From positions 5,262 to 69,261 of the forward strand of contig JBFHIG010000001.1 of assembly GCA_041596615.1 (NCBI GenBank): a stretch of DNA of 64,000 nt, written 5' to 3'. Position 1 is the first letter of the stretch; every line of letters starts with the position of its first letter. The position numbers and the translations under genes were made by a program. Positions 43,164 through 55,265 of this stretch are shown here, piece by piece. Source of the stretch: Candidatus Moraniibacteriota bacterium. Lineage in GTDB: Bacteria; Patescibacteriota; Minisyncoccia; Moranbacterales; DUUL01. The notes below the pieces were generated by a model, which did no database searches, had not been told where the DNA came from, and worked only from the letters and a program-made list of their open reading frames with translations.

Positions 43164-43294
43164 AAATATATTTAGAAAGTCTTTAATTTAGTCTATTTGC
43201 ACCCAATTCAAAACAAAAACAAGGCGCAAGTCCTATCAATAGTTAAATATAGCTTATTTGGAGGGGATTTTCAAGAGGGAGCCTAGAACGCTAG

Positions 43295-43402
43295 TTGCCA
43301 TTGACAAATTACTTAAAATGTGCTATGGTGTCTATAATTTCATTTTAATATGCAATTAACGTAGAGGCTTGAATTCTCAAGCAAAAAGGACGGGGGAATG
43401 AA
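43295..43402 (+). promoter_or_regulatory. Conserved promoter plus 5' leader module, copy 1
   Basis: TTGACA (43301..43306), 17 bp, extended -10 TGCTATGGT (43321..43329). Leader hairpin GCTTGA-ATTC-TCAAGC (43367..43382), then ACGGGGGAA Shine-Dalgarno. Homologous to 54646..54758 and 54086..54193. Confidence 0.6.
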
Positions 43403-43738
43403 ATGCAAATTTATAAAAATGTTGGTTGGATATTGTTTGGAATGATGTTGGCAGTTGGACTTATCGAAGGTAAAAATTATTTCTTTCCACAAAAAGTGGA
43501 ATTTAAAAATGTATACCTTACTACTTTTTCTGCAAAGAAGGGTTCACCAAGAATCCTTTATGCATCCTATGCGGGGATAAACTCAGTTATCACAATTGCC
43601 AGTGACAAAAAAGAGGCGCAGGAATTTGTGATGGAAGATATGAAAAAAATGTATAGCCCAGAAGATGGATGGGGAGACTATACAATCGTTACGGACAAAG
43701 TAAGGAAAGAGCTCTTGGCCAATATCCGCAAAGAGTAA
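43403..43738 (+). CDS. Small signal-anchored protein, cassette family member 1
   Basis: 111 aa with an N-terminal TM. The C-terminal KKMYSPEDGW resembles KDLYPEKDGW in the 54194 paralog. Confidence 0.55.
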   Translation: MQIYKNVGWILFGMMLAVGLIEGKNYFFPQKVEFKNVYLTTFSAKKGSPRILYASYAGINSVITIASDKKEAQEFVMEDMKKMYSPEDGWGDYTIVTDKVRKELLANIRKE

Positions 43739-43777
43739 AGACTCAAATTAGGGTCAAAACAGAGCAAACGCTCGAAA

Positions 43778-43812
43778 AACCGCTGTATGCAATTTGCACC
43801 CAGTGGTTTTTT
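43778..43812 (+). terminator. Cassette-family terminator, copy a
   Basis: AACCGCTG / CAGTGGTT stem (one G:U), loop containing GCAATTTGC, then TTTTTT. Homologous to 53992, 54576 and 55133. Confidence 0.6.
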
Positions 43813-44036
43813 ACGTGGGGGATTTGTTGAATGGGTTGGGGATGGTTTTTGTTTTTGGTAGAGAGGGGAAGACGGAAATAATACAGTTGAAATACTGGTC
43901 AAACACAAAGAGAGATTGTATAATAAAAGTAGGTTCCTTGTGAGTATAGGAGCTTTAAGAAGAATTAATAAATCTAGAGGAAACCCAGCTTCAATGTGAA
44001 GTATTCATAGAACTTCTAATTATTGACAAAAATACA

Positions 44037-44630
44037 ATGAGAAAAATAATTGTCATAGAATTTATTACATTAGATGGGGTCATACAAGCGCCTGGTGGAC
44101 CCAAAGAAGACACTTCGGGTGGTTTCAAATACGGAGGTTGGGTTACACCATATTTTGACGAAGCCGCTGGTAAGATTATGGAAAAACAAATGAGCCCCGC
44201 GGATCTTCTTTTGGGCAGAAAAACATTTGAAATTTTTGCCTCCTATTGGCCCGAACATGCAGACAATTGGCCAGGCATCAATGATGTCACTAAATATGTC
44301 ATGTCCAAGACCATGAAAAAGTCAGATTGGAAAAATACGGTATTTCTAAAAAGTTTGGAGGATATAAAAAAACTCAAAAACGGGGAAGGCTCTGATATCA
44401 AAGTTTGGGGCAGTAGCAAGCTCGCGCAACTGTTATTCGAGCATGATTTAGTGGATGAACTTTGGCTCAAAATTTTTCCGTTGACACTTGGCAAGGGAAA
44501 AAAGTTATTTGGAGACGGCACAATTTCAGCAGCTTTAAAATTAGCAGAGAGTTCCGTTACACCAAGTGGTGTGATTATTGCTAATTACAAACGAGCAGGA
44601 GAGATTAAAACGGGCACTGTTGAGGCTTAA
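44037..44630 (+). CDS. Dihydrofolate-reductase-family protein (RibD C-terminal domain type)
   Basis: IEFITLDGVIQAPGGP...GRKTFEIFASYWP...VWGSSKLAQLL...LVDELWLKIFPLTLGKGKKLF. Confidence 0.75.
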   Translation: MRKIIVIEFITLDGVIQAPGGPKEDTSGGFKYGGWVTPYFDEAAGKIMEKQMSPADLLLGRKTFEIFASYWPEHADNWPGINDVTKYVMSKTMKKSDWKNTVFLKSLEDIKKLKNGEGSDIKVWGSSKLAQLLFEHDLVDELWLKIFPLTLGKGKKLFGDGTISAALKLAESSVTPSGVIIANYKRAGEIKTGTVEA

Positions 44631-44691
44631 GTGGCCAATTAATTAGCAATAAATGTATCAAAGAAGATAATAACTAATTAATAAAAATATT

Positions 44692-45129
44692 ATGTCAAAA
44701 ACAAGCATATACTTAAATTTTAATGGAAATACCGAAGAGGCATTTAGCTTTTACAAAACTGTTTTTGGGACGGACTTTATTGGTAATCTCGTGCGTAACG
44801 GTGATATGCCAAAAACAGCTGGATTCCCTGAGCTTTCAGATCAAGAGAAAGATCTCATTATGCATGTGGCTTTACCAATTCTTGGTGGAATCCAATTAAT
44901 GGGCACTGATGTTTTAGAGTCAATGGGTATGAAAGTGACATTTGGTAATAATGTCTTTATAAATCTTGAACCAGACACTCGAGAAGAAACATACCGTCTA
45001 TTCAAGGCGTTATCAGAGGGTGGAAAAGTTGATATGGAACTCCAGGAAATGTTTTGGGGTGACTACTTCGGTTCATGCCAAGATAAATTTGGTGTGCGAT
45101 GGATGTTTAATTGTGCGAGTAAGGAATAA
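44692..45129 (+). CDS. VOC-superfamily protein, PhnB-like
   Basis: YLNFNGNTEEAFSFYKTVFG...MHVAL...GGIQLMGTD...FGVRWMFN. Confidence 0.8.
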   Translation: MSKTSIYLNFNGNTEEAFSFYKTVFGTDFIGNLVRNGDMPKTAGFPELSDQEKDLIMHVALPILGGIQLMGTDVLESMGMKVTFGNNVFINLEPDTREETYRLFKALSEGGKVDMELQEMFWGDYFGSCQDKFGVRWMFNCASKE

Positions 45130-45150
45130 AATAATAATTATTCAAAATAT

Positions 45151-45615
45151 ATGAAAATGAAAAATAAAATCACCGCTTGCTTGTGGTTTGAGAAAGACCT
45201 GCCTCAAGTGATCGAATATTACAAGAATATATTTAAAGATAATTTCAAAGTAGTCTATCTAGGAGATAAAGAAACTGGCCCGGGTGGTGAGTATCAATTT
45301 GGCACAGTTGAGATTTTTGGCAAAAATTATGACTTACTGGCAGCTGGACCAATGTTTAAGTTTACTGAGGCTGTTTCCTTGACTATAAATTGTGAGGATC
45401 AAAAGGAGACCGACTATTATTGGGAGGCACTAACCAAGAACGGTGGAGAAGAGAATGTGTGTGGTTGGTGCAAAGACAAGTATGGTTTGTCTTGGCAAGT
45501 GATACCAACAAGATTAACGGAATTGTCCACAGGAACCAATAAAAAAAAGAAAGATTATGCGATGAAGCAGATGTTTAGCATGAAAAAAATTATAATCAAA
45601 AATCTAGAGAAATAG
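45151..45615 (+). CDS. VOC-superfamily protein (3-demethylubiquinone-9 methyltransferase-like domain)
   Basis: ITACLWFEKD...VIEYYKNIF and the highly conserved CGWCKDKYGLSWQVIP block. Confidence 0.85.
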   Translation: MKMKNKITACLWFEKDLPQVIEYYKNIFKDNFKVVYLGDKETGPGGEYQFGTVEIFGKNYDLLAAGPMFKFTEAVSLTINCEDQKETDYYWEALTKNGGEENVCGWCKDKYGLSWQVIPTRLTELSTGTNKKKKDYAMKQMFSMKKIIIKNLEK

Positions 45616-45712
45616 TTCACGTGTGAACGTTATCATCGCACGGGCTTAGGCATATAAAGCAAGTGACAAGCTTCAATGTAAGTTAAAGTATGTTTAAAAT
45701 TGAACACCAAAT

Positions 45713-46141
45713 ATGAAAAAAACTAACAACAAAAAGATGGATCCCGTAGTGCATTTTGAAATGCCCTATGAAGACAAAGAGAGAATGATTACTTTTTATG
45801 AAACTGTTTTTGGTTGGGAGATGACCAAGCTTGGATCTGATATGATGGACTATGTGCTGGCAAAAACAGCTGTAGCAAATGAGAAGCAAGATACGATGCT
45901 TAAAGATGTAGCCAGGGGGACAATCGGAGGTGGCTTTTTTTCAAAGAAACCTGACTGGCCAGCACAATATCCATCCGTAGTTATTGCGGTTGATGATATC
46001 AAAGAATCAATGGAACTTATCAACAAGAACGGTGGCAATGTTTTGGGCGAGCCGATGGATATTCCAGGAACTGGTGCATTTGTTTCCTTTATGGATACTG
46101 AAGGAAATCGTGTAAGCATCATTCAACCATTGCCAATGTAG
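45713..46141 (+). CDS. Glyoxalase/bleomycin-resistance (VOC) family protein
   Basis: VVHFEMPYEDKERMITFYETVFGW...DIPGTGAFVSFMDTEGNRVSIIQ. Confidence 0.75.
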   Translation: MKKTNNKKMDPVVHFEMPYEDKERMITFYETVFGWEMTKLGSDMMDYVLAKTAVANEKQDTMLKDVARGTIGGGFFSKKPDWPAQYPSVVIAVDDIKESMELINKNGGNVLGEPMDIPGTGAFVSFMDTEGNRVSIIQPLPM

Positions 46142-46163
46142 TAATTTTTTAAGAGGAGTCAAT

Positions 46164-46463
46164 ATGAATGCGAATCAATCACTGACAAAAAAAGAAATTG
46201 CAACTGGTGTAGTTCATAAAATACCTGCTGATATGAGGGAGTCTTTAATTTCCAGCCGGAATATATTAGAAAGATGGAACAGTCTCACACCGCTAGCACG
46301 TAATGAATGGATATGCTGGGTTACAATCGTCAAGAAGCCAGAAACAAGGAAAGATCATCTGGCTCGTTTATGCGCGGAGCTTCTTAGCGGAAAACGTAGA
46401 CCTTGTTGCTGGTCAGGTTGTCCTCATCGCAAAACCAATGTAAAAAATATCCCAAATAAATAA
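46164..46463 (+). CDS. YdeI/OmpD-associated family protein
   Basis: LTPLARNEWICWVTIVKKPETRKDHLARL...GKRRPCCWSGCPHR. Confidence 0.7.
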   Translation: MNANQSLTKKEIATGVVHKIPADMRESLISSRNILERWNSLTPLARNEWICWVTIVKKPETRKDHLARLCAELLSGKRRPCCWSGCPHRKTNVKNIPNK

Positions 46464-46536
46464 GCCAGAGTTAGACAGTGAAGTTCAAAACGGTGGTGAA
46501 CAATTTTATAAACTTTTAATTTTTAAAAATAATATT

Positions 46537-46776
46537 ATGAAAACAATGATATGTAATCAGCTAGATGGTGCTTGCGATAAAGAATTTCATGCGAACTCTT
46601 TTGAAGAGATTGCAGAAATGAGTAAAAAGCATGGAACCGAGATGTTTTAAAAAGGTGATAAGTATAATCTTGAAGCAATGAGTAGGATGAAAGATATGAT
46701 GCAAAAACCCGAAGCCGCGCAAGAATGGTTTGAAAGTAAAAGAAAAGAGTTTGAGGCATTACCAGAAGAAGAATAA
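46537..46776 (+). pseudogene. DUF1059-like gene interrupted by an in-frame TAA
   Basis: Hand translation gives MKTMICNQLDGACDKEFHANSFEEIAEMSKKHGTEMF*KGDKYNLEAMSRMKDMMQKPEAAQEWFESKRKEFEALPEEE*. The TAA is at 46648..46650, where homologs as I recall them have Gln (CAA). Confidence 0.6.
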
Positions 46777-46818
46777 GGTGTCTTGAAAAATAAATTTTTG
46801 GATAGGGAAAAATTTCTT

Positions 46819-46845
46819 CGCTGGAGCGGGCTTGTAGCCCGCTCC
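46819..46845. repeat. Type-A REP hairpin
   Basis: CGCTGGAGCGGGCTTGTAGCCCGCTCC: GGAGCGGGC / GCCCGCTCC perfect 9-bp stem with a CGCT tail. Confidence 0.75.
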
Positions 46846-46897
46846 CATGGTTGGAGCTTCTGTCTAAAAAACAAAAAATGCCTTTAATCAAAATGAA

Positions 46898-47104
46898 CAA
46901 TAAAAGTTATAAGTTTAAAATAAATTCTTTGTGAGAATTAAAACCTTAACACGAACCAATGAACCAGGCTACCCGCCTGAACCAGTACGGGCAGGCAAGC
47001 CCGCTCCAGCGCGAAGGCACAATAAAGTCTGCAATATGCTAAAATAAAAACAAAGCATTTCCCGGGCAAGTGCTGATAAAAGTTGTAAACTGAAAACAAA
47101 TGAA
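46898..47104. repeat. BIME-like mosaic (degenerate module D, module F, expanded type-A end CCCGCTCCAGCGC, module C, module D)
   Basis: Segment-by-segment identity to 48130..48230, 52054..52132 and 52719..52755 (see findings). Confidence 0.75.
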
Positions 47105-47213
47105 CTAGCAAAAAGAATGGAACAGTTTCTCTCGATAAGCCATGTTGCTCATGAATAACCTTATAAATAAGCAAGAGACAGGCAAGTTAGCACTAACGTA
47201 AATAATAAAAAAA

Positions 47214-47981
47214 ATGCAGGAAAAACAAAAACAAGCAAAAAACATATCCAAACTTTTCAGAGGGGCCAAGATGGTTGTTCTGATTTCATTTATGCTCATT
47301 GTTGCAGCTGGAATAGCTTTATGCTTTTTTGTAGCAAGAGAGACATCTCCGGCCGCTGTCACTAGCCAAATAATTGACCAACAAGAAACGCCAATCGCCC
47401 CAGTTCAAAAAAAAGTCGAAATCTCGTCAACAGTTCTTAATCCAAAGGTTGATGGACTGGAATGGAAAGAAATTACACATGCTAACTTTTGGAAAAATCC
47501 TGAGCTTTTTGCTACTCCAGATTATAAATTTGCGAACATAAAATTCTCCTATCCTTCGAGCTGGAAATTTGATTGTTGTGGTGATACGGATCGGGGCAGT
47601 GCTCATTTTATATTTTCTTCAGAAGAGAAAAAGGGTGATTCGCCATATATTTCAATTATGGACTATAGTTTGAGGGGATGTCCTTCTGGAGAAACAACAT
47701 GTGCCATGGATAAGCAAGTTACAAAGATGCCAAAGGAGAAATACGATGATTTGGTTGAGGCAATTCAAGCTGATGCAAAAGTAAAACCAAAAAAGAGCTT
47801 GAAAGGTTTGGGAGTTGAAGCTTTTAACTATGAATATGCCGATGAAAAAGGAATGAAAACTGATTCTTATATATTTAAAACAGGCGAAGACGTTGTTATA
47901 ATTTCATTTGGTCATTACGATGAATTTGAGTCCGGATTTATAGATGATTTTTTAGGAAAGATAGAAAAGGATATAAACTAA
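47214..47981 (+). CDS. Signal-anchored hypothetical protein
   Basis: 255 aa with an N-terminal TM (MVVLISFMLIVAAGIALCFFV). The outer domain has a Cys pair, FDCCGD. Confidence 0.5.
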   Translation: MQEKQKQAKNISKLFRGAKMVVLISFMLIVAAGIALCFFVARETSPAAVTSQIIDQQETPIAPVQKKVEISSTVLNPKVDGLEWKEITHANFWKNPELFATPDYKFANIKFSYPSSWKFDCCGDTDRGSAHFIFSSEEKKGDSPYISIMDYSLRGCPSGETTCAMDKQVTKMPKEKYDDLVEAIQADAKVKPKKSLKGLGVEAFNYEYADEKGMKTDSYIFKTGEDVVIISFGHYDEFESGFIDDFLGKIEKDIN

Positions 47982-48004
47982 CTTTTTGAAGGAATCACAT
48001 CTTT

Positions 48005-48109
48005 GTGCTGGAGCGGGTTTGCAACCCGGTTCTATACTTCAAAGCAACATTATAATATTTTCACCGCGTCTTAAAACAAAAGGTCCGAGTTGCAAACTCG
48101 GACCAGCGC
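48005..48109. repeat. Two-hairpin REP doublet (type A left end, type B right end)
   Basis: GTGCTGGAGCGGGTTTGCAACCCGGTTC ... GGTCCGAGTTGCAAACTCGGACCAGCGC. The ends are imperfect inverted repeats of each other. Confidence 0.8.
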
Positions 48110-48129
48110 AAAGCCAGACGATTGGTATT

Positions 48130-48230
48130 GGTCAAGTGCAAATGAAAGTTGTAGACTAAAAGTAAATTATTTGTGGGAATAGGAACTTTAACACAAACTA
48201 ATGAACCGGGCTACAAGCCCGCTCCAGCGC
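48130..48230. repeat. Mosaic: module D, module F, type-A REP end
   Basis: GGTCAAGTGCAAATGAAAGTTGTAGACTAAAAGTAAATTATTTGTGGGAAT...AATGAACCGGGCTACAAGCCCGCTCCAGCGC parallels 46898..47012. Confidence 0.75.
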
Positions 48231-48381
48231 GAAAATGGAAAGTCATCTTGGTAGCGTCAGGCTTATTTTTATTATACAGTCCACTATTTTTCCTGGGAGT
48301 AGGTTTAATCTCTTATATGCTTTTGGATTATTGTGACAGCAAAATACGTGAATCGAGGCGTTCTAAAGAAAATATTCTCTA

Positions 48382-48460
48382 GGCAAGTATTGATAAAAGT
48401 TGTAAACTGAAAATAAGTGAATTAATAAGAAGAAGAGCGAGTTGCAAACTTGGACTAGTG
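48382..48460. repeat. Module D plus a degenerate type-B hairpin
   Basis: GGCAAGTATTGATAAAAGTTGTAAACTGAAAA, then GAGCGAGTTGCAAACTTGGACTAGTG (a decayed form of GGTCCGAGTTGCAAACTCGGACCAGCG). Confidence 0.65.
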
Positions 48461-48490
48461 TGGAATTTATTAATAATTATTTAGCTTATT

Positions 48491-49153
48491 ATGTTTATAG
48501 AAGAAATAATCCCTCAGCTTGAACAGGAAATCAAAATTCTTTTTCATGAAGAAAGTAGTGGTCATGACATTCATCATTTGAAGCGTGTTTTGAATATCGC
48601 GTTAACACTTCAAAAAAAGGAAGGAGGAGACAGATTAATTATTGCTGTTTCCGCATTTCTACATGACATCCACAGGATTATTCAAAAGGATACTGGAAAA
48701 TTTTGTTCTCCAAAAGATTCACTGCCAAAAGTCAAAGACATGCTTGATAAAACTGAATTAACTGATGAACAAAAGGAAGGAATTCTTCATTGTATCGAAT
48801 ACCATGAGGAATATAATTTCTCTGATAACGGAAAAACCGTAAATGATATTGAAACTTTAGTTTTACAAGATGCTGACAATCTTGATGCAATTGGAGCAAT
48901 TGGCATCGGAAGAACTTTTTCATTCGGAGGAGCAAATAAATTAGTTATGTGGATTCCAGAGAAACCTTTTAATAGAAAAACCTTTGACGAATCCGAGAAA
49001 GATCCTTCAACGATACATCATTTTTATAGTAAGCTCCTAAAACTAAAGGAAAACATGAACACAGAAACAGCGAAGAAAATGGCTGATGTGAGACATGAAT
49101 TTATGGAATTATTTCTCCAAGAATTCTTTGACGAATGGAACGGCAAAAAATAA
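48491..49153 (+). CDS. HD-domain phosphohydrolase
   Basis: GHDIHHLKRV and AFLHDIHR (H...HD metal site) plus LQDADNLDAIGAIGI. Confidence 0.75.
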   Translation: MFIEEIIPQLEQEIKILFHEESSGHDIHHLKRVLNIALTLQKKEGGDRLIIAVSAFLHDIHRIIQKDTGKFCSPKDSLPKVKDMLDKTELTDEQKEGILHCIEYHEEYNFSDNGKTVNDIETLVLQDADNLDAIGAIGIGRTFSFGGANKLVMWIPEKPFNRKTFDESEKDPSTIHHFYSKLLKLKENMNTETAKKMADVRHEFMELFLQEFFDEWNGKK

Positions 49154-49167
49154 CAGTCTAAATTTTT

Positions 49168-49345
49168 GCGCTGGAGCAACTCAGTTCGCGCTGGAGCGGG
49201 TTTCCAACCCGGTCCTATATTTCAAACCAACATTATAATATTTACACCGTGTCTTAAAATAAACAGTCCGAGTTACCCGCCTTTGCAAGCCATAGCGAGA
49301 CAGGCCCGCCTGAACCAGTACGGGCAGGCAAACTTGGAGCAGTGC
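49168..49345. repeat. BIME-like mosaic in inverted orientation relative to 51960..52176
   Basis: GCGCTGGAGCAACTCAGTTCGCGCTGGAGCGGGTTTCCAACCCGGTCC ... AGTCCGAGTTACCCGCCTTTGCAAGCCATAGCGAGACAGGCCCGCCTGAACCAGTACGGGCAGGCAAACTTGGAGCAGTGC. The second part is nearly the reverse complement of 51960..52040. Confidence 0.8.
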
Positions 49346-49380
49346 AAAAAACAAGTAAATTAACCCCTAGTCTAAAATAA

Positions 49381-49770
49381 ATGAAAACAACTTTGCACCA
49401 CTTCGCTTACAATATAAGACCCAATCAATTAGAGTTGGTTTTGGAATTGTTTGAAATACTTGGTTGTACTATTGCATATAGAGAAGGAAACAGTAGATGG
49501 TGCCAAATTGAACAAAAGCCAATCCCAGTTGATATACAAATTATTGAAACTGAAGATGAAGAAATACCATTGGATATAAAAACCAATACGCACATTGCTT
49601 TTTTATCAGACTCCCCAAAAATGGACATTGATAATATAGAAAAATGGGCAAAGAATAAAGATATTCAAATCGTAAGAGGCGGCTGGTCAGACAAAGAACT
49701 TTGGTTTGACTTACCTAACATATTTACCAACTTTGTCGTTGAGATTATGCATATTTCAATTGTAGAATGA
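49381..49770 (+). CDS. Hypothetical protein, possibly VOC-fold
   Basis: 129 aa. HHFAY near the N-terminus and THIAF mid-protein resemble VOC metal ligand positions. Weak evidence. Confidence 0.35.
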   Translation: MKTTLHHFAYNIRPNQLELVLELFEILGCTIAYREGNSRWCQIEQKPIPVDIQIIETEDEEIPLDIKTNTHIAFLSDSPKMDIDNIEKWAKNKDIQIVRGGWSDKELWFDLPNIFTNFVVEIMHISIVE

Positions 49771-49773
49771 AAA

Positions 49774-50193
49774 ATGATAGCCAAATTAGCCACCAAAAAA
49801 CACGAAGACGAAATAAATATTTTCTTTGAAACTCATTTAAACAAAAACAATGAGGCTATCACCTGTGAAGAATTTTTTTGTCCATTTGGAGTGAAAGCTG
49901 CTATAAAAAGAAAACAGGTAATCATTATTCTAGATGATGACAAAAAAATAGTAGCAGCGACCAGATTCTATCCCAGGAAGAGAGACGGCGTTGTGTCAGT
50001 TTATCAATTTGCTATTGATGAACAAAATAGAGGGGAAAACTTTCTAAAGAAAATGCTATTTGTGACAGGATACAAAAACTTTGAAGTTCTCTGCCCATTG
50101 AATTCAAAATTTAACAATTATTATGAAAAGACTGGTTGGATTTTGAAGACCGAAAATAAAAAATATAATTATTGGAATTTATCTCTAAGCTAG
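49774..50193 (+). CDS. Possible GNAT-family N-acetyltransferase
   Basis: 139 aa. VYQFAIDEQNRGENFLKKML resembles GNAT motif A. Starts 4 nt after the previous stop. Confidence 0.4.
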   Translation: MIAKLATKKHEDEINIFFETHLNKNNEAITCEEFFCPFGVKAAIKRKQVIIILDDDKKIVAATRFYPRKRDGVVSVYQFAIDEQNRGENFLKKMLFVTGYKNFEVLCPLNSKFNNYYEKTGWILKTENKKYNYWNLSLS

Positions 50194-50282
50194 TGATGGT
50201 TTGTTTCCTTGTACTGATTTGAATCTGTGGTCAGGTTTTGTAATTCAAGTCAATATGGGCACAAACAAAGCAGTTATTCTAA

Positions 50283-50320
50283 ATAGATGCATCTATAAAG
50301 TACTCTATAGATGCATCTAA
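50283..50320. promoter_or_regulatory. Second pair of TAGATGCATCTA palindromes
   Basis: AGATGCATCT at 50285..50294 and 50309..50318, centres 24 bp apart, as at 25597..25630. The spacer sequence differs between loci (8/14 identical). Confidence 0.4.
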
Positions 50321-50557
50321 AAACAAAAAGGGAAAAATCACACGAAGGTTGATTAAAAAAGGGGAGTGCAACTTCCTGACAATCTCTTGCAATAAAAAAT
50401 CGGAGTTGGCAGTCTGAATCAACGCTGGTGGATAAACTAGAACCAGAGCGAATCCAAGATATTTTTTTGAGTTCATATTTATTAAAACTTAAATTTTCTG
50501 GTATACTAAAGAAGCGAATCTAGGAACTTTAATTTAAAATAAAATTATTATAACTAC

Positions 50558-51457
50558 ATGAGCAAAAGACTAATCATCATCGCAAGTGGCACAACCATAT
50601 TAATCCTGAGTTTTGTATTATTTTTTATCTTGAAGCCTACTAAACCAGATGATAAAATTTCAGCTATGAATGTCGAAGGAGAGATCTTTCAAGGAAGCGA
50701 CAAAATTTTAGACACAAACACCAAAGAAGAAGTTACCCTGAAAGGTTCTGTCTACGAATATTCATGGATAAAATCATTCGACAACTATGATTATGCACAT
50801 TGTCATACAGGTGGTTATGTTTTCAATAAAGAAAACAGCTCAAATATGTTTGAATACAATATCCAGTTCAAAGATAATGTAAATATCAATGAATACAAAG
50901 ATAAACTGATTACCATAAAAGGCGATGAAGTCATTGAAACAAAAGAAATTGATATGAATTGTGACGAAATAAGTCAAAGACCCGCAGGGGAGTGTGAAAA
51001 GAGCGAAACATCTACTTTTTTGTGTAAGAAAATAATCAACGCCACAATAATTGAAAAGGTAAGTGAAATACACGATAAATTTACTGCTAGTATTTCGCCG
51101 AAACAAGATATACTTCAATATTCAATCGGAGATGAAAACCCTACGCTGAATATCCATGATGATTTGATAATTCAAGACACAAAAACCGGGGAAAAAAAGA
51201 TATTTGATCTATATAAAGATCTTTCTAATGAAAATATAAAAAAATATTTACAAAATATTTTTGTGCCTACGCAATATTCTTTATATACAGAAATAATTAA
51301 GTGGTCAGATGATAAAAAAATGTTATATGGCAGGATAGATTTACTTTCCTCGGCTGATCCACCTATGCAAGCAGAGAGTTCATATTTTAAAATCGATACT
51401 GATGCTTGGGGAATAAGCACATCCCCCTTATCTTTTGCTGAAGTAAATGGTAAATAA
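50558..51457 (+). CDS. Signal-anchored hypothetical protein
   Basis: 299 aa with an N-terminal TM (LIIIASGTTILILSFVLFFIL). No motif. Confidence 0.5.
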   Translation: MSKRLIIIASGTTILILSFVLFFILKPTKPDDKISAMNVEGEIFQGSDKILDTNTKEEVTLKGSVYEYSWIKSFDNYDYAHCHTGGYVFNKENSSNMFEYNIQFKDNVNINEYKDKLITIKGDEVIETKEIDMNCDEISQRPAGECEKSETSTFLCKKIINATIIEKVSEIHDKFTASISPKQDILQYSIGDENPTLNIHDDLIIQDTKTGEKKIFDLYKDLSNENIKKYLQNIFVPTQYSLYTEIIKWSDDKKMLYGRIDLLSSADPPMQAESSYFKIDTDAWGISTSPLSFAEVNGK

Positions 51458-51559
51458 ATCTTTATTTACCAATCCGCTCCAGCCAGAATAGATGTTTTTC
51501 CCGTCGAGGCTACGAAAAAGAAGTTATCATAAAAAACCATAAATATAAAATAAAAAAAT

Positions 51560-51928
51560 ATGCATTATATCGATATCAAAAAAAGATGGGAGAAAGTGAG
51601 GATATTTATTTTAATTTACGCTGTTTTTCCTTCGGTAATAATAATAGCGCTTTCCAAATCCAAATCCATATTCTTGGCTGAAATTTTATTTTTTGTCTTA
51701 ACATTTACTCTGGTTTCAGGCTTACTAGCGTTCTTTTATAAGAAATATGATTTCAATAAAAGAATGATTACTGCAGCAAAAAATGAGGGGATTGAAAATG
51801 TTTATTATGATGATTTGAGGGAAAATTTTGTTGCTAGGTTTATTAAGTGGGTTGTGCTGATTTTATTTTTAGTGCTTGTTTTGAAAGTTATAGAGGGCAT
51901 GATAAAAGGTGAAATAATAATTGGTTAA
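51560..51928 (+). CDS. Small membrane protein (3 TM)
   Basis: 122 aa with three hydrophobic spans. Confidence 0.45.
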   Translation: MHYIDIKKRWEKVRIFILIYAVFPSVIIIALSKSKSIFLAEILFFVLTFTLVSGLLAFFYKKYDFNKRMITAAKNEGIENVYYDDLRENFVARFIKWVVLILFLVLVLKVIEGMIKGEIIIG

Positions 51929-51959
51929 AATTATGGCAAATTCGTTATGATTAAAATAT

Positions 51960-52176
51960 TGCGCTGGTCCGAGTTTGCCTGCCCGCACTGGTTCAGGCGG
52001 GCCTGTCTCGCTATGGCTTGCCAAGGCGGGTAACTCGGACCTTTTATTTTAAAACACAACAAAATCTGCAATATGCTAAAATAAAAGCAAAATATTTTAT
52101 AGGCAAGCGCCAATAAAAGTTGTAAACTAAAAAGAAATTAATAAAAAGATAGACCAGGCCAAAAGCCCGCTCCAGT
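51960..52176. repeat. BIME-like mosaic: expanded type-B hairpin, module C, module D, type-A end
   Basis: GCGCTGGTCCGAGTTT[53-nt insert]TAACTCGGACC, then ...AATCTGCAATATGCTAAAATAAAAGCAAA, GGCAAGCGCCAATAAAAGTTGTAAACTAAAAA, ...GCCCGCTCCAGTAC. Confidence 0.8.
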
Positions 52177-52201
52177 ACAAAAACTTCTTAAAAATATCTA
52201 C

Positions 52202-52666
52202 GTGAACCAAACAAATATAATTAATCTTGTTGCCGATATTGTTGAAAAAGCATGTGAGTTAAAAAACAAATTTACCGACGCTACAAACGCCCCAGTTAAC
52301 TATGCTTGTGTGTTTTGTCAAAACGATGAAGAATACAGAGAATTCAAAAAACTCGCAGGTAAAATTGGCAAAGTCATAGAGAATACACCGTCTGGTCCGC
52401 TTTATCACATCAGGCCGATAGACACTGTTTCCGGTCAGCTTAAACTATTAAAAATAAGACGCCCCGACGAGACCAAGCCGGAACGTGGAGACGCGGACTT
52501 TACGGTTAGCGACTATCAAGGTTTTAAAAATAAATATCTACAGCAAAATAGATTTAAATTGATAACACGGCCAGAATTTGAAATGATTGAACTTATGGAT
52601 CCTGGCTTCAATGTTCGCGTTTATTTTTCTTATCCGCCATTGGATGAACAGCTTGGTATTAGCTGA
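52202..52666 (+). CDS. Hypothetical protein
   Basis: 154 aa with a GTG start. No motif recognised. Confidence 0.45.
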   Translation: MNQTNIINLVADIVEKACELKNKFTDATNAPVNYACVFCQNDEEYREFKKLAGKIGKVIENTPSGPLYHIRPIDTVSGQLKLLKIRRPDETKPERGDADFTVSDYQGFKNKYLQQNRFKLITRPEFEMIELMDPGFNVRVYFSYPPLDEQLGIS

Positions 52667-52678
52667 GCCGATATTTTT

Positions 52679-53338
52679 GCGCTGGTCCGAGTTTGTAACT
52701 CGGACCTTTGTTTCAAGACACAATAGAATCTGCAGTATGCTAAAATAAAAACAAATCATTGATACATACACAAAATGCCTTCCGTAAAGTTTGATAAGAA
52801 AATGTCTTCTGGTAGTTTCTTTATTACGCTGACTGTCAAAAATTGGTATTATATTTTTGATAGACATAATCGTTGGGAGATTATAGCCGATTCTTTGGAA
52901 TATTGTCAAAAGAAAAAAGGATTAAAGCTGTTTGGATTTGTTTTTATGTTGAATCATATTCATTTAGTGATAATGTCTGATGATGCACTAGGATTTGTTC
53001 GAGATTTCAAAAAGTTCACTTCTAAGAAATTGCGTGAAAATATTGAATTGAATGAACCCTCCATTATTGAATTATTTTCGAAAGAAGATGGCTCATACAA
53101 ATTTTGGAAATCTAGCAATATGCCAAAAGTTATTAATTCTGAAAAATTTTTATTACAAAAACTTGACTATATTCACAATAATCCCGTTAGAAAAAGATAT
53201 GTGGGAAAAGCAGAAGATTGGTACTGGTCTAGTGCTAATCCAAATTGTAGATTGAGGGTTGATGCTTTGTGGAATTAGTTTTATTTTTGTTTTCGTTGGA
53301 TTTAAACAAAGGTCCGAGTTACAAACTCGGACCAGCGC
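52679..53338 (+). mobile_element. RAYT unit: REP-associated tyrosine transposase gene flanked by inverted REP hairpins
   Basis: 52679..52706 (GCGCTGGTCCGAGTTTGTAACTCGGACC) is the exact reverse complement of 53311..53338. Each forms a hairpin with a 10-bp stem. Confidence 0.8.
52775..53278 (+). CDS. REP-associated tyrosine transposase (IS200/IS605-type Y1 HUH transposase, RAYT-like)
   Basis: HUH motif in FVFMLNHIHLVIMS. Catalytic-Tyr helix LDYIHNNPVRKRYVGKAEDWYWSS. 167 aa, single gene with no tnpB. Confidence 0.8.
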   Translation: MPSVKFDKKMSSGSFFITLTVKNWYYIFDRHNRWEIIADSLEYCQKKKGLKLFGFVFMLNHIHLVIMSDDALGFVRDFKKFTSKKLRENIELNEPSIIELFSKEDGSYKFWKSSNMPKVINSEKFLLQKLDYIHNNPVRKRYVGKAEDWYWSSANPNCRLRVDALWN

Positions 53339-53354
53339 AGAAGAAAATAAGTCT

Positions 53355-53387
53355 AGTCAAATGAGAGCAAAAATTGTAAACTGAAAG
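53355..53387 (+). repeat. Module D copy just outside the right REP
   Basis: AGTCAAATGAGAGCAAAAATTGTAAACTGAAAG aligns with the module D copies at 47065, 48130, 48382 and 52101. Confidence 0.6.
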
Positions 53388-53440
53388 TAAATTCTCTCAT
53401 CAATTGAATAGCGTTGGAAATAAATTTTAAACTGACCTCT

Positions 53441-53974
53441 ATGAAAATTGGAATAATTTCAGATGTGCACGACAACTTGAGACACTTAAATAAGGCAATC
53501 AATTTTTTCAATAAAGAGAATATTGAGCTTTTGATTCACTGTGGTGATTGGGATATGCCATTTACCATGAGGACATATATACCGCTTGAATGTCCAATCA
53601 AAGGCGTTTTGGGAAACGGAGACCCAGATATCCAAAAATTTAAATATCAACTACAAAACCTAGAGATTTTGAAAGAAGTAAATCTAGATTTAGCGCCTCA
53701 CCTTCAAGATTTTACTATTGATAACGTACGTTTTGGAGTATTTCATGGTGACGATGAGAATCTAAACAAATGTTTGGTAGAATCACAGTTGTTTGATGTT
53801 CTATGTCTTGGGCATACACACAAACCCCTGATTGAAAAAAGTGGCAAAACAACAATTATCAATCCCGGTTCGTTAGTCGGCTATATGTTTGAAACAGGCG
53901 ATGTACCCGTAACCGTTGCCCTGTTTGACACTCAAACAAAGGAAGCAGAAATCATTGATTTGGAAATTGAATAA
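53441..53974 (+). CDS. Metallophosphoesterase, YfcE/MJ0936 family
   Basis: MKIGIISDVHDN, HCGDW, GNGD and GHTHKP motifs. The ATG at 53441 is preferred over the TTG at 53414. Confidence 0.8.
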   Translation: MKIGIISDVHDNLRHLNKAINFFNKENIELLIHCGDWDMPFTMRTYIPLECPIKGVLGNGDPDIQKFKYQLQNLEILKEVNLDLAPHLQDFTIDNVRFGVFHGDDENLNKCLVESQLFDVLCLGHTHKPLIEKSGKTTIINPGSLVGYMFETGDVPVTVALFDTQTKEAEIIDLEIE

Positions 53975-53991
53975 AGTTGAAATTTTTTCAT

Positions 53992-54026
53992 AAATCTGCC
54001 AAACGCAATTTGCATTTGGCAGATTT
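53992..54026 (+). terminator. Cassette-family terminator, copy b
   Basis: AAATCTGCCAAA / TTTGGCAGATTT perfect 12-bp stem with loop CGCAATTTGCA. Confidence 0.6.
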
Positions 54027-54085
54027 ATGTGCAAGGAGAGTTTCAAATAGCGTGTGCTGGAACGGGTTTACTTACAGAGGTTATT

Positions 54086-54193
54086 TTTGTTGACGAATTG
54101 CTTGAGATGTGCCATTTTATGTATGGTATTGTTTCCATAAATAATTAGTAGGATGGCTTGAATCTTCAAGCAAAAAAAACGGGGGAAATTGCA
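54086..54193 (+). promoter_or_regulatory. Promoter plus 5' leader module, copy 2 (more diverged)
   Basis: TTGACG at 54090..54095. Leader hairpin GCTTGA-ATCT-TCAAGC (54156..54171), then AAAAAAAACGGGGGAAATTGCA-ATG. Confidence 0.5.
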
Positions 54194-54553
54194 ATGAGGA
54201 AGTGTAGGAAAACAAGAATAGGGAAGAGAATGTTTTTTCTTTGCAAAACAATTTTGACAATCTTGGTCATTACAGTCATAGCAGGAAGACCTGCTGTAGC
54301 TTATTGTGATGAAGCTGACCAAGCAGAAAAGAAATTTATAGTCTCTTACAGTGCTGAAAAAAGCAGTGATGCCGAAAGTGACCAAGGGAAAATGAAAATA
54401 CCCATGAGCACTCCTGTGCCAGCACAGAGTAGTGAAATATATGCTCTTGAAAGTGAGATTGCTGTCAAAAAGGTTGCTGAAACAAGGGTGAAGGATCTTT
54501 ACCCTGAAAAAGATGGATGGATCAATCAAAAGATTGAGATTAAACCATATTAG
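54194..54553 (+). CDS. Small signal-anchored protein, cassette family member 2
   Basis: MRKCRKTRIGKRMFF...VIAGRPAVAYCDE...DQGKMK...KKVAETRVKDLYPEKDGW...IKPY is paralogous to 54759..55112. The start is set by the conserved Shine-Dalgarno (track start 54158). Confidence 0.6.
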   Translation: MRKCRKTRIGKRMFFLCKTILTILVITVIAGRPAVAYCDEADQAEKKFIVSYSAEKSSDAESDQGKMKIPMSTPVPAQSSEIYALESEIAVKKVAETRVKDLYPEKDGWINQKIEIKPY

Positions 54554-54575
54554 GAAGCAGAAGAATAGTTCTGGG

Positions 54576-54610
54576 AACTCGCTGAATACAAATTGTGTTC
54601 AGTGGGTTTT
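54576..54610 (+). terminator. Cassette-family terminator, copy c
   Basis: CGCTGAATAC / GTGTTCAGTG imperfect stem, loop AAATT, then GGTTTTT. Confidence 0.5.
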
Positions 54611-54645
54611 TACTTTGGGGTCCATGAAAAAGCACATACAAAGTT

Positions 54646-54758
54646 GCTGCCATTGACAAATTGCATAAAATGTGCTATGTTATATGAAGCATCATTTTAT
54701 TGATAGGCAATTAATGAGGTAGCCTGAATTTTCAGGCAAAAAAACGGGGGAATCCGAA
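54646..54758 (+). promoter_or_regulatory. Promoter plus 5' leader module, copy 3
   Basis: TTGACA (54653..54658), 17 bp, extended -10 TGCTATGTT (54673..54681). Leader hairpin GCCTGA-ATTT-TCAGGC (54722..54737), then ACGGGGGAA Shine-Dalgarno. Confidence 0.6.
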
Positions 54759-55112
54759 ATGAGAAAGGCTAAAGAAACGACGATAGGAAACGGAATGGCA
54801 ATTTTTCTTTACATCATGATTTTGGTCATTGCAATTGTTGCAGGAAGACCAGTTTTGGGTCATTGTGAAGAAACCAATCAGGGGCAGCGGTTTATCATCC
54901 GCTACCACGTCGAGAAAACCCAGGAGGTTAAAATTGACCAAGGGAATGTGAAAATGTCCTCCAGTTCTCGTATTGAGAATAAGTGGGCGGAGATAGGCTT
55001 TTATAAAGACAAGGCCACTGCCAAAAAAGTTGGAGAAGAAAGAATGAAAAAGTTACATCCCAAAGACGGATCAACAAAAACATCTGTAACAGTAATTCCT
55101 TATGGGGAATAA
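54759..55112 (+). CDS. Small signal-anchored protein, cassette family member 3
   Basis: MRKAKETTIGNGMAIF...IVAGRPVLGHCEE...DQGNVKM...KKVGEERMKKLHPKDG...VIPYGE. Confidence 0.6.
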   Translation: MRKAKETTIGNGMAIFLYIMILVIAIVAGRPVLGHCEETNQGQRFIIRYHVEKTQEVKIDQGNVKMSSSSRIENKWAEIGFYKDKATAKKVGEERMKKLHPKDGSTKTSVTVIPYGE

Positions 55113-55132
55113 CTGTAGAGCAAATGCTCTGG

Positions 55133-55169
55133 AAATCTGCCAAATGCAAATTGTGTTTGGCGGATTTTT
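55133..55169 (+). terminator. Cassette-family terminator, copy d
   Basis: AAATCTGCCAAA / TTTGGCGGATTT stem (one G:U), loop TGCAAATTGTG, then TTTTT. Confidence 0.65.
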
Positions 55170-55265
55170 ACGTGTGGAGGCTTTCTAATAACTCTTATCT
55201 GGCTAGTAATAATGCTCAAAAATTGCTATAATATAAGTAGATTTAAGCATTAAAAACCAAACATT

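What the first reader, a model, noticed from the sequence alone, without database searches (positions are those of the whole stretch)
54722..54737. Conserved 5'-leader hairpin with a compensatory base-pair change across the three cassette copies
About 20 nt upstream of each cassette start codon is a hairpin with a 6-bp stem and a 4-nt loop: GCTTGA-ATTC-TCAAGC (43367..43382), GCTTGA-ATCT-TCAAGC (54156..54171) and GCCTGA-ATTT-TCAGGC (54722..54737). In copy 3 the third stem position changed on both arms (T:A to C:G), which preserves pairing, while the loop varies freely. Each hairpin is followed by an A-run and the GGGGGA Shine-Dalgarno. Covariation supports selection for RNA (or cruciform) structure. 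Possible roles are a 5' stabiliser, a binding site for a translational regulator, or a processing signal.
Basis: seen in the sequence. Interest (0 to 1): 0.55.

Follow-up and report, generated by a model that had tools for sequence, protein, structure and literature searches.

The report
Small conserved hairpin in mRNA leader
Three copies of a small membrane-protein gene in a tiny-genome bacterium share a real six-base-pair hairpin in their mRNA leaders that probably helps expression, but only four examples exist anywhere, so its function cannot be proven from sequence.

Summary
Three 6-bp/4-nt-loop hairpins sit at the stated coordinates, each 20-22 nt before the start codon and followed by an A-run and GGGGGA. 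They are the only copies in the 1.3-Mb genome.

Each lies at about +32 to +35 of a roughly 70-nt 5' UTR behind a consensus promoter. It belongs to a self-contained unit of promoter, leader, 111-119-aa membrane-anchored ORF and long terminator.

I found one further copy, the orthologue in a sister species. It keeps all six pairs, two of them as G.U wobbles, so it folds only on the coding strand.

The stem is a conserved island (identity 0.92/0.81) next to a near-neutral spacer (0.57). All four stem substitutions preserve pairing.

The formal covariation test has no power with four sequences (255/500 shuffles). No other copies turned up in 319 order genomes, 5.8 billion proteins or the promoter-anchored contig scans.

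Most likely this is a cis-acting RNA stem-loop that keeps the ribosome-binding site open and may block RNase J decay. It looks like an ordinary kind of element, newly seen in a genus-restricted gene family. Interest is low to moderate.

The parts
43301..43329 (+). Copy 1 promoter: TTGACA, 17-nt spacer, TATGGT, with TG before the -10 box.
   Evidence: The scan tool scores it 10 of 12 with an extended -10.
43367..43382 (+). Copy 1 leader hairpin GCTTGA-ATTC-TCAAGC, at about +32..+47 of the predicted transcript.
   Evidence: Stability in isolation is -7.2 kcal/mol.
43383..43397 (+). Copy 1 A-run (43383-43387) and Shine-Dalgarno GGGGGA (43392-43397).
   Evidence: Coordinates. The unpaired probability of the A-run is 0.99.
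43403..43738 (+). Copy 1 ORF of 111 aa: an N-terminal hydrophobic helix followed by a small beta-beta-alpha-beta-alpha domain. No known family.
   Evidence: ORF. No Pfam hit. AlphaFold pLDDT 72. Foldseek against PDB gave 0 hits at E<=0.001.
43762..43812 (+). Copy 1 3' end: a small hairpin (43762-43773) and a long terminator stem flanked by A- and T-tracts (43774-43812).
53977..54046 (+). An extra copy of the cassette-type terminator (T0) upstream of copy 2.
   Evidence: Repeat family D12, alignment and fold.
54090..54118 (+). Copy 2 promoter-like element: TTGACG, 17-nt spacer, CATTTT. This is a weaker -10 box.
   Evidence: Aligned with the other promoters. It did not pass the scan tool's threshold.
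54156..54171 (+). Copy 2 leader hairpin GCTTGA-ATCT-TCAAGC.
   Evidence: Stability is -7.2 kcal/mol.
54172..54186 (+). Copy 2 A-run (54172-54179) and SD GGGGGA (54181-54186).
54194..54553 (+). Copy 2 ORF of 119 aa, counted from the SD-preceded ATG. It has a basic N-terminus, a hydrophobic segment and a small domain.
54558..54610 (+). Copy 2 3' small hairpin and terminator stem.
54653..54681 (+). Copy 3 promoter: TTGACA, 17-nt spacer, TATGTT, with TG before the -10 box.
   Evidence: The scan tool scores it 10 of 12 with an extended -10.
54722..54737 (+). Copy 3 leader hairpin GCCTGA-ATTT-TCAGGC. This is the finding's own coordinates; the third pair is C:G.
   Evidence: Stability is -9.7 kcal/mol. 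Pair probability is 0.99 in the full leader.
54738..54751 (+). Copy 3 A-run (54738-54744) and SD GGGGGA (54746-54751).
54759..55112 (+). Copy 3 ORF of 117 aa.
   Evidence: The atlas search gave no usable hit.
55116..55168 (+). Copy 3 3' small hairpin and terminator stem.

Best explanation
The hairpin is a cis-acting RNA stem-loop inside the 5' UTR of the cassette mRNAs. It belongs to a conserved 'expression chassis' made of a consensus sigma-70-type promoter, a roughly 70-nt leader, the stem-loop, an 8-10-nt A-rich single-stranded tract, a strong SD and a long terminator. This chassis drives a small, fast-evolving, membrane-anchored protein.

Proposed mechanism (inferred, not shown):
- By pairing with itself, the pyrimidine-rich loop and 3' arm (AUYYUCARG) are kept away from the purine-rich SD/start region. 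The A-tract plus SD then stay open as a ribosome standby/landing site.
- This organism has RNase Y and RNase J. In such an organism, the stem-loop together with the ribosome bound just downstream could also stop 5'-to-3' decay after a cut in the AU-rich upstream leader.
- On this reading it is a constitutive structural module and not a switch.

Shown: the structure exists, it is conserved above background, all its substitutions preserve pairing, and it is strand-specific. Inferred: that it is transcribed, and what it does.
For: Position:
- A predicted promoter lies upstream in all copies. The hairpin sits at +32..+35 of a 67-71-nt UTR.

Conservation:
- Pooled pairwise identity is 0.92 (5' arm) and 0.81 (3' arm). 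That is like the promoter (0.83) and well above the adjacent spacer (0.57) and the SD-ATG gap (0.50).
- Neutral identity between G000 and G001 is 64/112 four-fold sites in the neighbouring prfA gene.

Pairing:
- 24 of 24 cells are paired across the 4 sequences, with 1 compensatory pair and 2 G.U pairs.
- In a simulation of 4 substitutions, all preserve pairing in 0.75% of runs at the measured ts:tv of 22:26.

Strand:
- G001's copy folds at -5.2 kcal/mol on the + strand and 0 on the - strand.

Internal control:
- The terminators of the same cassettes show 9 of 23 pairs with compensatory change. So these copies are diverged enough to reveal selection on structure.

Accessibility:
- The SD..AUG+12 window is more open with the hairpin allowed than penalised in 4 of 4 leaders: 0.63/0.55, 0.62/0.55, 0.65/0.37 and 0.56/0.49. 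The A-tract is 0.86-1.00 unpaired.
- The geometry fits an accessible standby-site module under As = 15+P+D-H (PMC3936740; abstract and passages read).

Decay machinery:
- RNase J (571 bits) and RNase Y (631 bits) are both above their curated cut-offs in this genome.
Against: - There are only four sequences, and three of them were used to make the observation.
- 4 of 6 pairs never vary, so conservation of sequence (rather than of structure) is not excluded.
- The shuffle control has no power: 255 of 500 shuffles reach the observed value.
- If only transitions are allowed, the all-pairing outcome has P = 0.10.
- The accessibility gain is small in 3 of 4 leaders (0.07-0.08). In copy 1 the hairpin has only about 0.53 probability in the full-leader ensemble.
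- By the E. coli standby model, a short hairpin with a long proximal tract is neutral and does not enhance.
- The hairpin is not at the predicted 5' end, so any protection from 5' decay needs an unproven processing step.
- The TSS is predicted, not measured.
- Copy 2's -10 box is poor and failed the scan threshold.
Confidence: 0.45

Rival explanations
1. The RNA hairpin is a binding site (operator) for a trans-acting factor, either an RNA-binding protein or a small RNA. That factor would co-regulate the paralogous cassettes after transcription.
For: - Four of six pairs and the first two loop bases are invariant in sequence, not only in pairing, and the loop is restricted to AUYY. This is what a sequence-specific reader would impose.
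- The same element sits in front of three paralogues whose coding regions have otherwise diverged to 19% identity.
- Strand specificity favours RNA.
Against: - No candidate regulator gene lies next to any copy.
- No CsrA gene was found, though the genome is only 77% complete, and the loop has no GGA.
- Rfam has no match.
- With four closely related sequences, invariance may simply reflect shared descent.
Confidence: 0.15
2. The palindrome acts at the DNA level, as an operator for a dimeric transcription factor sitting as a roadblock downstream of the promoter.
For: - A 6-N4-6 perfect inverted repeat is the typical form of a dimeric HTH operator.
- All observed changes are transitions at half-site positions 1 and 3, which a tolerant reader could accept. 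Under a transitions-only model, the all-pairing outcome has P = 0.10.
Against: - In G001 the two half-sites differ at 2 of 6 positions, so the symmetry is lost while RNA pairing is kept.
- The palindrome occurs nowhere else in the genome above chance: 21 sites with up to 1 mismatch against 22-31 in shuffles, and the only perfect sites are the three leaders.
- It lies at +32..+47, not over the -35/-10 boxes.
- No regulator gene is adjacent.
Confidence: 0.1
3. The hairpin has no function of its own. It was present by chance in the ancestral cassette and persists through shared descent or hitch-hiking with the conserved promoter and SD.
For: - Perfect 6-bp hairpins occur in 89 of 779 leaders of this genome. 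They also occur in 4 of 18 non-cassette leaders behind look-alike promoters.
- There are only four related sequences and the formal test is non-significant.
- Between the orthologues alone, the stem (10/12 identical) is not clearly better kept than the spacer (26/37).
Against: - The spacer immediately upstream has decayed to 0.57 identity while the stem holds 0.81-0.92.
- All four stem substitutions keep pairing, P about 0.0075 at the measured ts:tv.
- The coding regions of the same units are saturated: third-position identity 0.39, pS 0.78. There has therefore been ample time for decay.
Confidence: 0.2

Closest known systems
Ribosome standby-site modules: a hairpin flanked by single-stranded tracts upstream of the SD. 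Source: Espah Borujeni, Channarasappa and Salis, NAR 2014, PMC3936740 (abstract and passages read).
   Same: - A short hairpin upstream of the SD that does not overlap it.
- It is followed by an 8-10-nt unstructured A-rich proximal tract.
- The geometry (H about 8, P 8-10) predicts high accessibility.
   Different: - That model was measured on synthetic E. coli leaders.
- It predicts that such a short hairpin is tolerated, not beneficial.
- Nothing has been measured in this organism.
5'-terminal stabiliser stem-loops and SD-dependent stabilisers: ompA, papA, aprE leaders and STAB-SD. These were seen as cited references in PMC3997798 and PMC5737220 (passages and reference lists read). The primary papers were not read.
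   Same: - A leader stem-loop next to a strong SD in an organism that has RNase J and RNase Y.
- A plausible barrier to 5'-to-3' decay.
   Different: - Those elements act at or within a few nucleotides of the 5' end. RppH needs 2 or more unpaired 5' nucleotides (PMC3997798, passage read).
- This hairpin begins about 31-34 nt inside the predicted transcript, so an extra processing step would be needed.
Palindromic operators of dimeric transcription factors (general knowledge, recalled).
   Same: A perfect 6-N4-6 inverted repeat in three copies.
   Different: - Symmetry is broken in the fourth copy while RNA pairing is kept.
- It is located well downstream of the promoter.
- There are no further sites in the genome.

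Membership tests
Ribosome standby-site module (PMC3936740) | The hairpin lies upstream of the 16S-binding site and is mutually exclusive with it. | tested here: met
   The hairpin ends 8-10 nt before the SD in 4 of 4 leaders.
Ribosome standby-site module (PMC3936740) | A single-stranded proximal tract lies between the hairpin and the SD. | tested here: met
   The mean unpaired probability of the 6 nt after the hairpin is 0.86-1.00 in 4 of 4 leaders.
Ribosome standby-site module (PMC3936740) | The module changes the translation initiation rate. | not testable with these tools
   This needs reporter measurements. The only available data are in-silico accessibility shifts of 0.07-0.28.
5'-terminal mRNA stabiliser stem-loop (ompA/aprE type) | The stem-loop lies at or within a few nucleotides of the transcript's 5' end. 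| tested here: not met
   The hairpin starts at +32 to +35 of the TSS predicted from the promoter. The TSS is predicted, not mapped, and a processed 5' end is not excluded.
5'-terminal mRNA stabiliser stem-loop (ompA/aprE type) | It prolongs mRNA half-life. | not testable with these tools
   No RNA data are available (no RNA run listed).
Intrinsic terminator / transcription attenuator | A GC-rich hairpin followed immediately by a U-run on the transcribed strand. | tested here: not met
   An A-run follows on the + strand, and on the - strand the T-run precedes the hairpin. The scan tool does not list these sites as terminators.
SD-sequestering riboswitch or RNA thermometer | The structure includes the SD or start codon, or there is a conserved alternative fold. 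| tested here: not met
   The hairpin excludes the SD and AUG. When it is penalised, the alternative pairings differ between copies. Rfam shows no relevant match at E<=1.
Palindromic DNA operator of a dimeric regulator | Two-fold symmetric half-sites kept across copies, usually with further sites forming a regulon. | tested here: not met
   G001's half-sites differ at 2 of 6 positions. There is no excess of sites in the genome: 21 against 22-31 in shuffles.
CsrA-type binding hairpin | A GGA motif in the loop, and a CsrA gene in the genome. | tested here: not met
   The loops read AUYY. PF02599 was not found in the genome, which is 77% complete.

The most novel reading that the evidence does not exclude
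The stem-loop is the shared operator of a dedicated post-transcriptional regulator. That regulator would coordinate, or make mutually exclusive, expression of a genus-specific family of rapidly diversifying surface-anchored proteins in an ultra-small bacterium.

On this reading, the conserved promoter-leader-terminator chassis serves as a plug-in frame. Coding alleles older than the species split would be swapped within it by recombination in the conserved flanks.
Probability: 0.07. Interest if true: 0.55.

Novelty: new member of a known kind. Interest (0 to 1): 0.25.

Why it matters
Taken alone, the hairpin is a small, ordinary type of leader element.

Its value is as a marker of an unusual gene unit. 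The expression signals are kept: promoter 26/29, hairpin 13/16, and terminator about 89% identical between species. The coding region they serve has diverged past saturation.

If the element could be shown to work, it would be one of very few cis-regulatory RNA elements defined in small-genome uncultivated bacteria. No transcription-start data turned up for them in my one literature search (3 papers held the terms, 2 were listed, neither relevant).

Tried and rejected
Searches for more copies all led nowhere:
- BLASTN of the leader in 61 relatives found only G001; the other hits were promoter-only or short A-run matches.
- Full cassette DNA against 27 family genomes and 319 order genomes found 2 genomes in each case, G000 and G001. 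The order search scored only 2 candidates per genome.
- The protein profile against 5.8 billion proteins returned the 4 proteins themselves among 403 candidates.
- The protein profile in six frames against 319 order genomes returned the 4 real copies plus 2 weak hits (16-20 bits) over the hydrophobic segment of 205- and 328-aa ORFs, which I judged spurious.
- Promoter-anchored pattern scans gave 10 metagenome loci and 4 genome loci. All are generic consensus promoters of unrelated organisms without the leader.
- A hairpin-motif scan of viral contigs gave 10 loci, all chance matches with no shared flanks.
- The syntenic prfA loci of G002 and G003 have no cassette.

Other negative or unavailable results:
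- RNA evidence: no RNA holder was listed for window 53950-55250, so no reads were laid.
- Rfam gave no relevant family.
- Protein function: no Pfam hit, no atlas hit, and no significant fold match (0 at E<=0.001, best TM about 0.4).

Readings considered and rejected:
- Minus-strand terminator: the T-run is on the wrong side of the hairpin.
- Leader peptide: the TTG ORF through the hairpin exists only in copy 2.
- Recombination or cassette boundary site: the hairpin is internal to the repeated unit.
- Conserved alternative fold or switch: the alternative pairings differ between copies.

Supplementary files of the papers were not consulted.

Full report
**1. Observation**

- GCTTGA-ATTC-TCAAGC at 43367-43382
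- GCTTGA-ATCT-TCAAGC at 54156-54171
- GCCTGA-ATTT-TCAGGC at 54722-54737

Each is followed by an A-run of 5-8 bases and GGGGGA. The ATG lies 20-22 nt after the stem.

The degenerate motif occurs 3 times in the window against 0.04 expected. It occurs 3 times in the whole genome, which is 1.30 Mb in 31 contigs at 35% GC and 77% complete. These are paralogous copies, so the excess reflects descent.

A perfect 6-bp hairpin in a leader is not rare in this genome: 89 of 779 SD-bearing leaders have one, against 46 in shuffles. The loop is not free. It reads A-U-Y-Y in every copy.

**2. What surrounds it**

Each hairpin sits inside a self-contained unit:
- a consensus promoter (TTGACA, 17 nt, TGnTATGNT; 10 of 12 matches with an extended -10 in copies 1 and 3; a weaker CATTTT -10 in copy 2, which failed the scan threshold)
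- a leader of 67-71 nt
- the hairpin at +32 to +35 of the predicted start
- the A-tract and the SD
- an ORF of 111-119 aa
- a small 3' hairpin
- a long terminator stem flanked by A- and T-tracts

A fourth terminator copy precedes copy 2 (53977-54046). So copies 2 and 3 form a tandem array whose repeat unit is terminator-promoter-leader-ORF.

The promoter type is generic. Look-alikes stand in front of unrelated genes in many relatives and in unrelated phyla, and none of them carries this leader. Among leaders behind such look-alike promoters, 4 of 18 non-cassette leaders have some perfect 6-bp hairpin before the SD.

The encoded proteins have an N-terminal hydrophobic helix and a small beta-beta-alpha-beta-alpha domain (pLDDT 72). 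They have no Pfam family, no significant fold match and no atlas look-alike.

**3. Relatives**

The family is confined to two of the four species of one genus.
- The protein profile finds only the four proteins themselves in 5.8 billion. It finds nothing credible in 319 genomes of the order searched in six frames.
- Cassette DNA is found in 2 of 27 family genomes and 2 of 319 order genomes.
- The genus-mates G002 and G003 have other sequence at the syntenic prfA locus.

The one extra copy, in G001, is the syntenic orthologue of copy 1. Its hairpin is GCTTGA-ATTT-TCAGGT. All six pairs are kept, with pair 1 as G.U and pair 3 as U.G. The U.G at pair 3 is the expected intermediate between the U:A of copies 1/2 and the C:G of copy 3.

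This copy folds at -5.2 kcal/mol on the + strand and not at all on the - strand. That favours RNA on the coding strand over a cruciform or a symmetric DNA site.

**4. Is it selected?**

Neutral divergence between G000 and G001 is high. The adjacent prfA gene has 64 of 112 four-fold sites identical, with pS 0.56.

Pooled pairwise identities across the four copies:

| Segment | Identity |
|---|---|
| Promoter | 0.83 |
| -10-to-hairpin spacer | 0.57 |
| 5' arm | 0.92 |
| Loop | 0.75 |
| 3' arm | 0.81 |
| A-tract | 0.68 |
| SD | 0.67 |
| SD-ATG gap | 0.50 |

The stem is therefore an island of conservation next to a spacer at about the neutral level.

All four stem substitutions preserve pairing. 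In a simulation with two substitutions in each of two lineages, this happens in 0.75% of runs at the measured ts:tv of 22:26. It happens in 10% of runs if only transitions occur.

The terminators of the same units give an internal positive control: 9 of 23 pairs show compensatory changes.

Against this:
- The formal count is 24/24 cells paired, but 4 of 6 pairs never vary and 255 of 500 shuffles reach the observed score.
- Three of the four sequences were used to make the observation.
- The independent sequence alone is worth roughly p = 0.09 (my estimate).
- Between the orthologues alone, the stem (10/12) is not clearly better kept than the spacer (26/37).

The covariation claim is therefore consistent with the data but not demonstrable.

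**5. Mechanism**

I favour a constitutive structural RNA element.

When the six pairs are penalised in silico on the native sequences, the pyrimidine-rich loop and 3' arm pair instead with the purine-rich SD/AUG region. With the hairpin allowed, the SD..AUG+12 window is more open in 4 of 4 leaders: 0.63/0.55, 0.62/0.55, 0.65/0.37 and 0.56/0.49. The A-tract is 0.86-1.00 unpaired.

The geometry matches an accessible standby-site module in the sense of PMC3936740. That E. coli model, however, predicts tolerance of such a short hairpin and not enhancement.

The genome encodes RNase J and RNase Y above curated cut-offs. A stem-loop adjacent to a ribosome-occupied strong SD could therefore act as a barrier to 5'-to-3' decay. 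The hairpin is not at the predicted 5' end, and classical stabilisers act at the terminus (PMC3997798, passages read). This role would therefore need an upstream cleavage that I cannot show.

Rival readings:
- An operator for an RNA-binding regulator. The invariant stem sequence and the AUYY loop fit this, but no candidate partner was found. No CsrA gene was found in the 77%-complete genome.
- A DNA operator. This is weakened by G001's broken symmetry, the position at +32..+47, and the absence of other sites (21 against 22-31 in shuffles).
- No function.

**6. A wider pattern**

The orthologous pair is a mosaic:

| Segment | G000 copy 1 vs G001 |
|---|---|
| prfA-to-promoter spacer | 130/137 identical |
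| Promoter | 26/29 identical |
| Hairpin | 13/16 identical |
| Terminator core | 89% identical |
| CDS, protein | 37/106 residues identical |
| CDS, third codon positions | 0.39 identity |
| CDS, pS and dN | 0.78 and 0.53 (prfA: 0.56 and 0.09) |

The coding region thus looks more diverged than the species split, while its expression signals are held. Possible explanations are strong constraint on the flanks combined with diversifying or relaxed evolution of the protein, or replacement of coding alleles by recombination in the conserved flanks. I could not test these without population data.

**7. Verdict**

The element is real, probably transcribed, probably selected and probably RNA. It is a new, genus-restricted example of a familiar kind of leader stem-loop. 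The sample of four sequences is exhaustive for the collections I could search, so the question can only be settled by experiment or by new sequence.

Noticed in passing
window 44000-53400: Between cassette copy 1 and copies 2/3 lies an array of about a dozen small same-strand ORFs: RibD_C, three glyoxalase/VOC-like proteins, YdeI/OmdA, an HD domain and several with no family. They are separated by families of palindromic repeats (D1-D5, D8, D10). There is also a weak IS200/Y1-transposase-like ORF at 52775-53278, scoring 22.2 bits against a cut-off of 23. It looks like a REP/RAYT-type or integron-like accessory island.
   Followed up: partly
window 43164-43300: The 137-nt spacer between the prfA start and the cassette -35 box is 130/137 identical between G000 and G001, although prfA four-fold sites are only 64/112 identical. 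It holds a divergent prfA promoter. That level of conservation suggests more than a promoter.
   Followed up: partly
window 43403-43738 vs L002 1611-1970: The cassette coding region is saturated between the two species (third-position identity 0.39, pS 0.78, dN 0.53) while prfA next door has pS 0.56 and dN 0.09. The cassette's non-coding flanks are conserved. This could reflect diversifying selection or allele replacement within a conserved frame.
   Followed up: partly
window 43774-43812, 54574-54610, 55132-55168, 53977-54046: The cassette terminators are long stems flanked by an A-tract and a T-tract (bidirectional type). 9 of 23 predicted pairs show compensatory changes across five copies. 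This is much stronger covariation than in the leader hairpin.
   Followed up: yes
L002 (G001:C3) end, about 270 nt after the cassette terminator: The G001 contig ends shortly after its single cassette. Further copies or a repeat array may therefore be unassembled there.
   Followed up: no
G000 contig C10, near 8411 (- strand): An unrelated gene leader has the same layout with a different sequence: a 6-bp hairpin (ACCTTG-5-CAAGGT), then an A-rich tract, then GGAG. It was the only other such case among the 779 leaders scanned.
   Followed up: no
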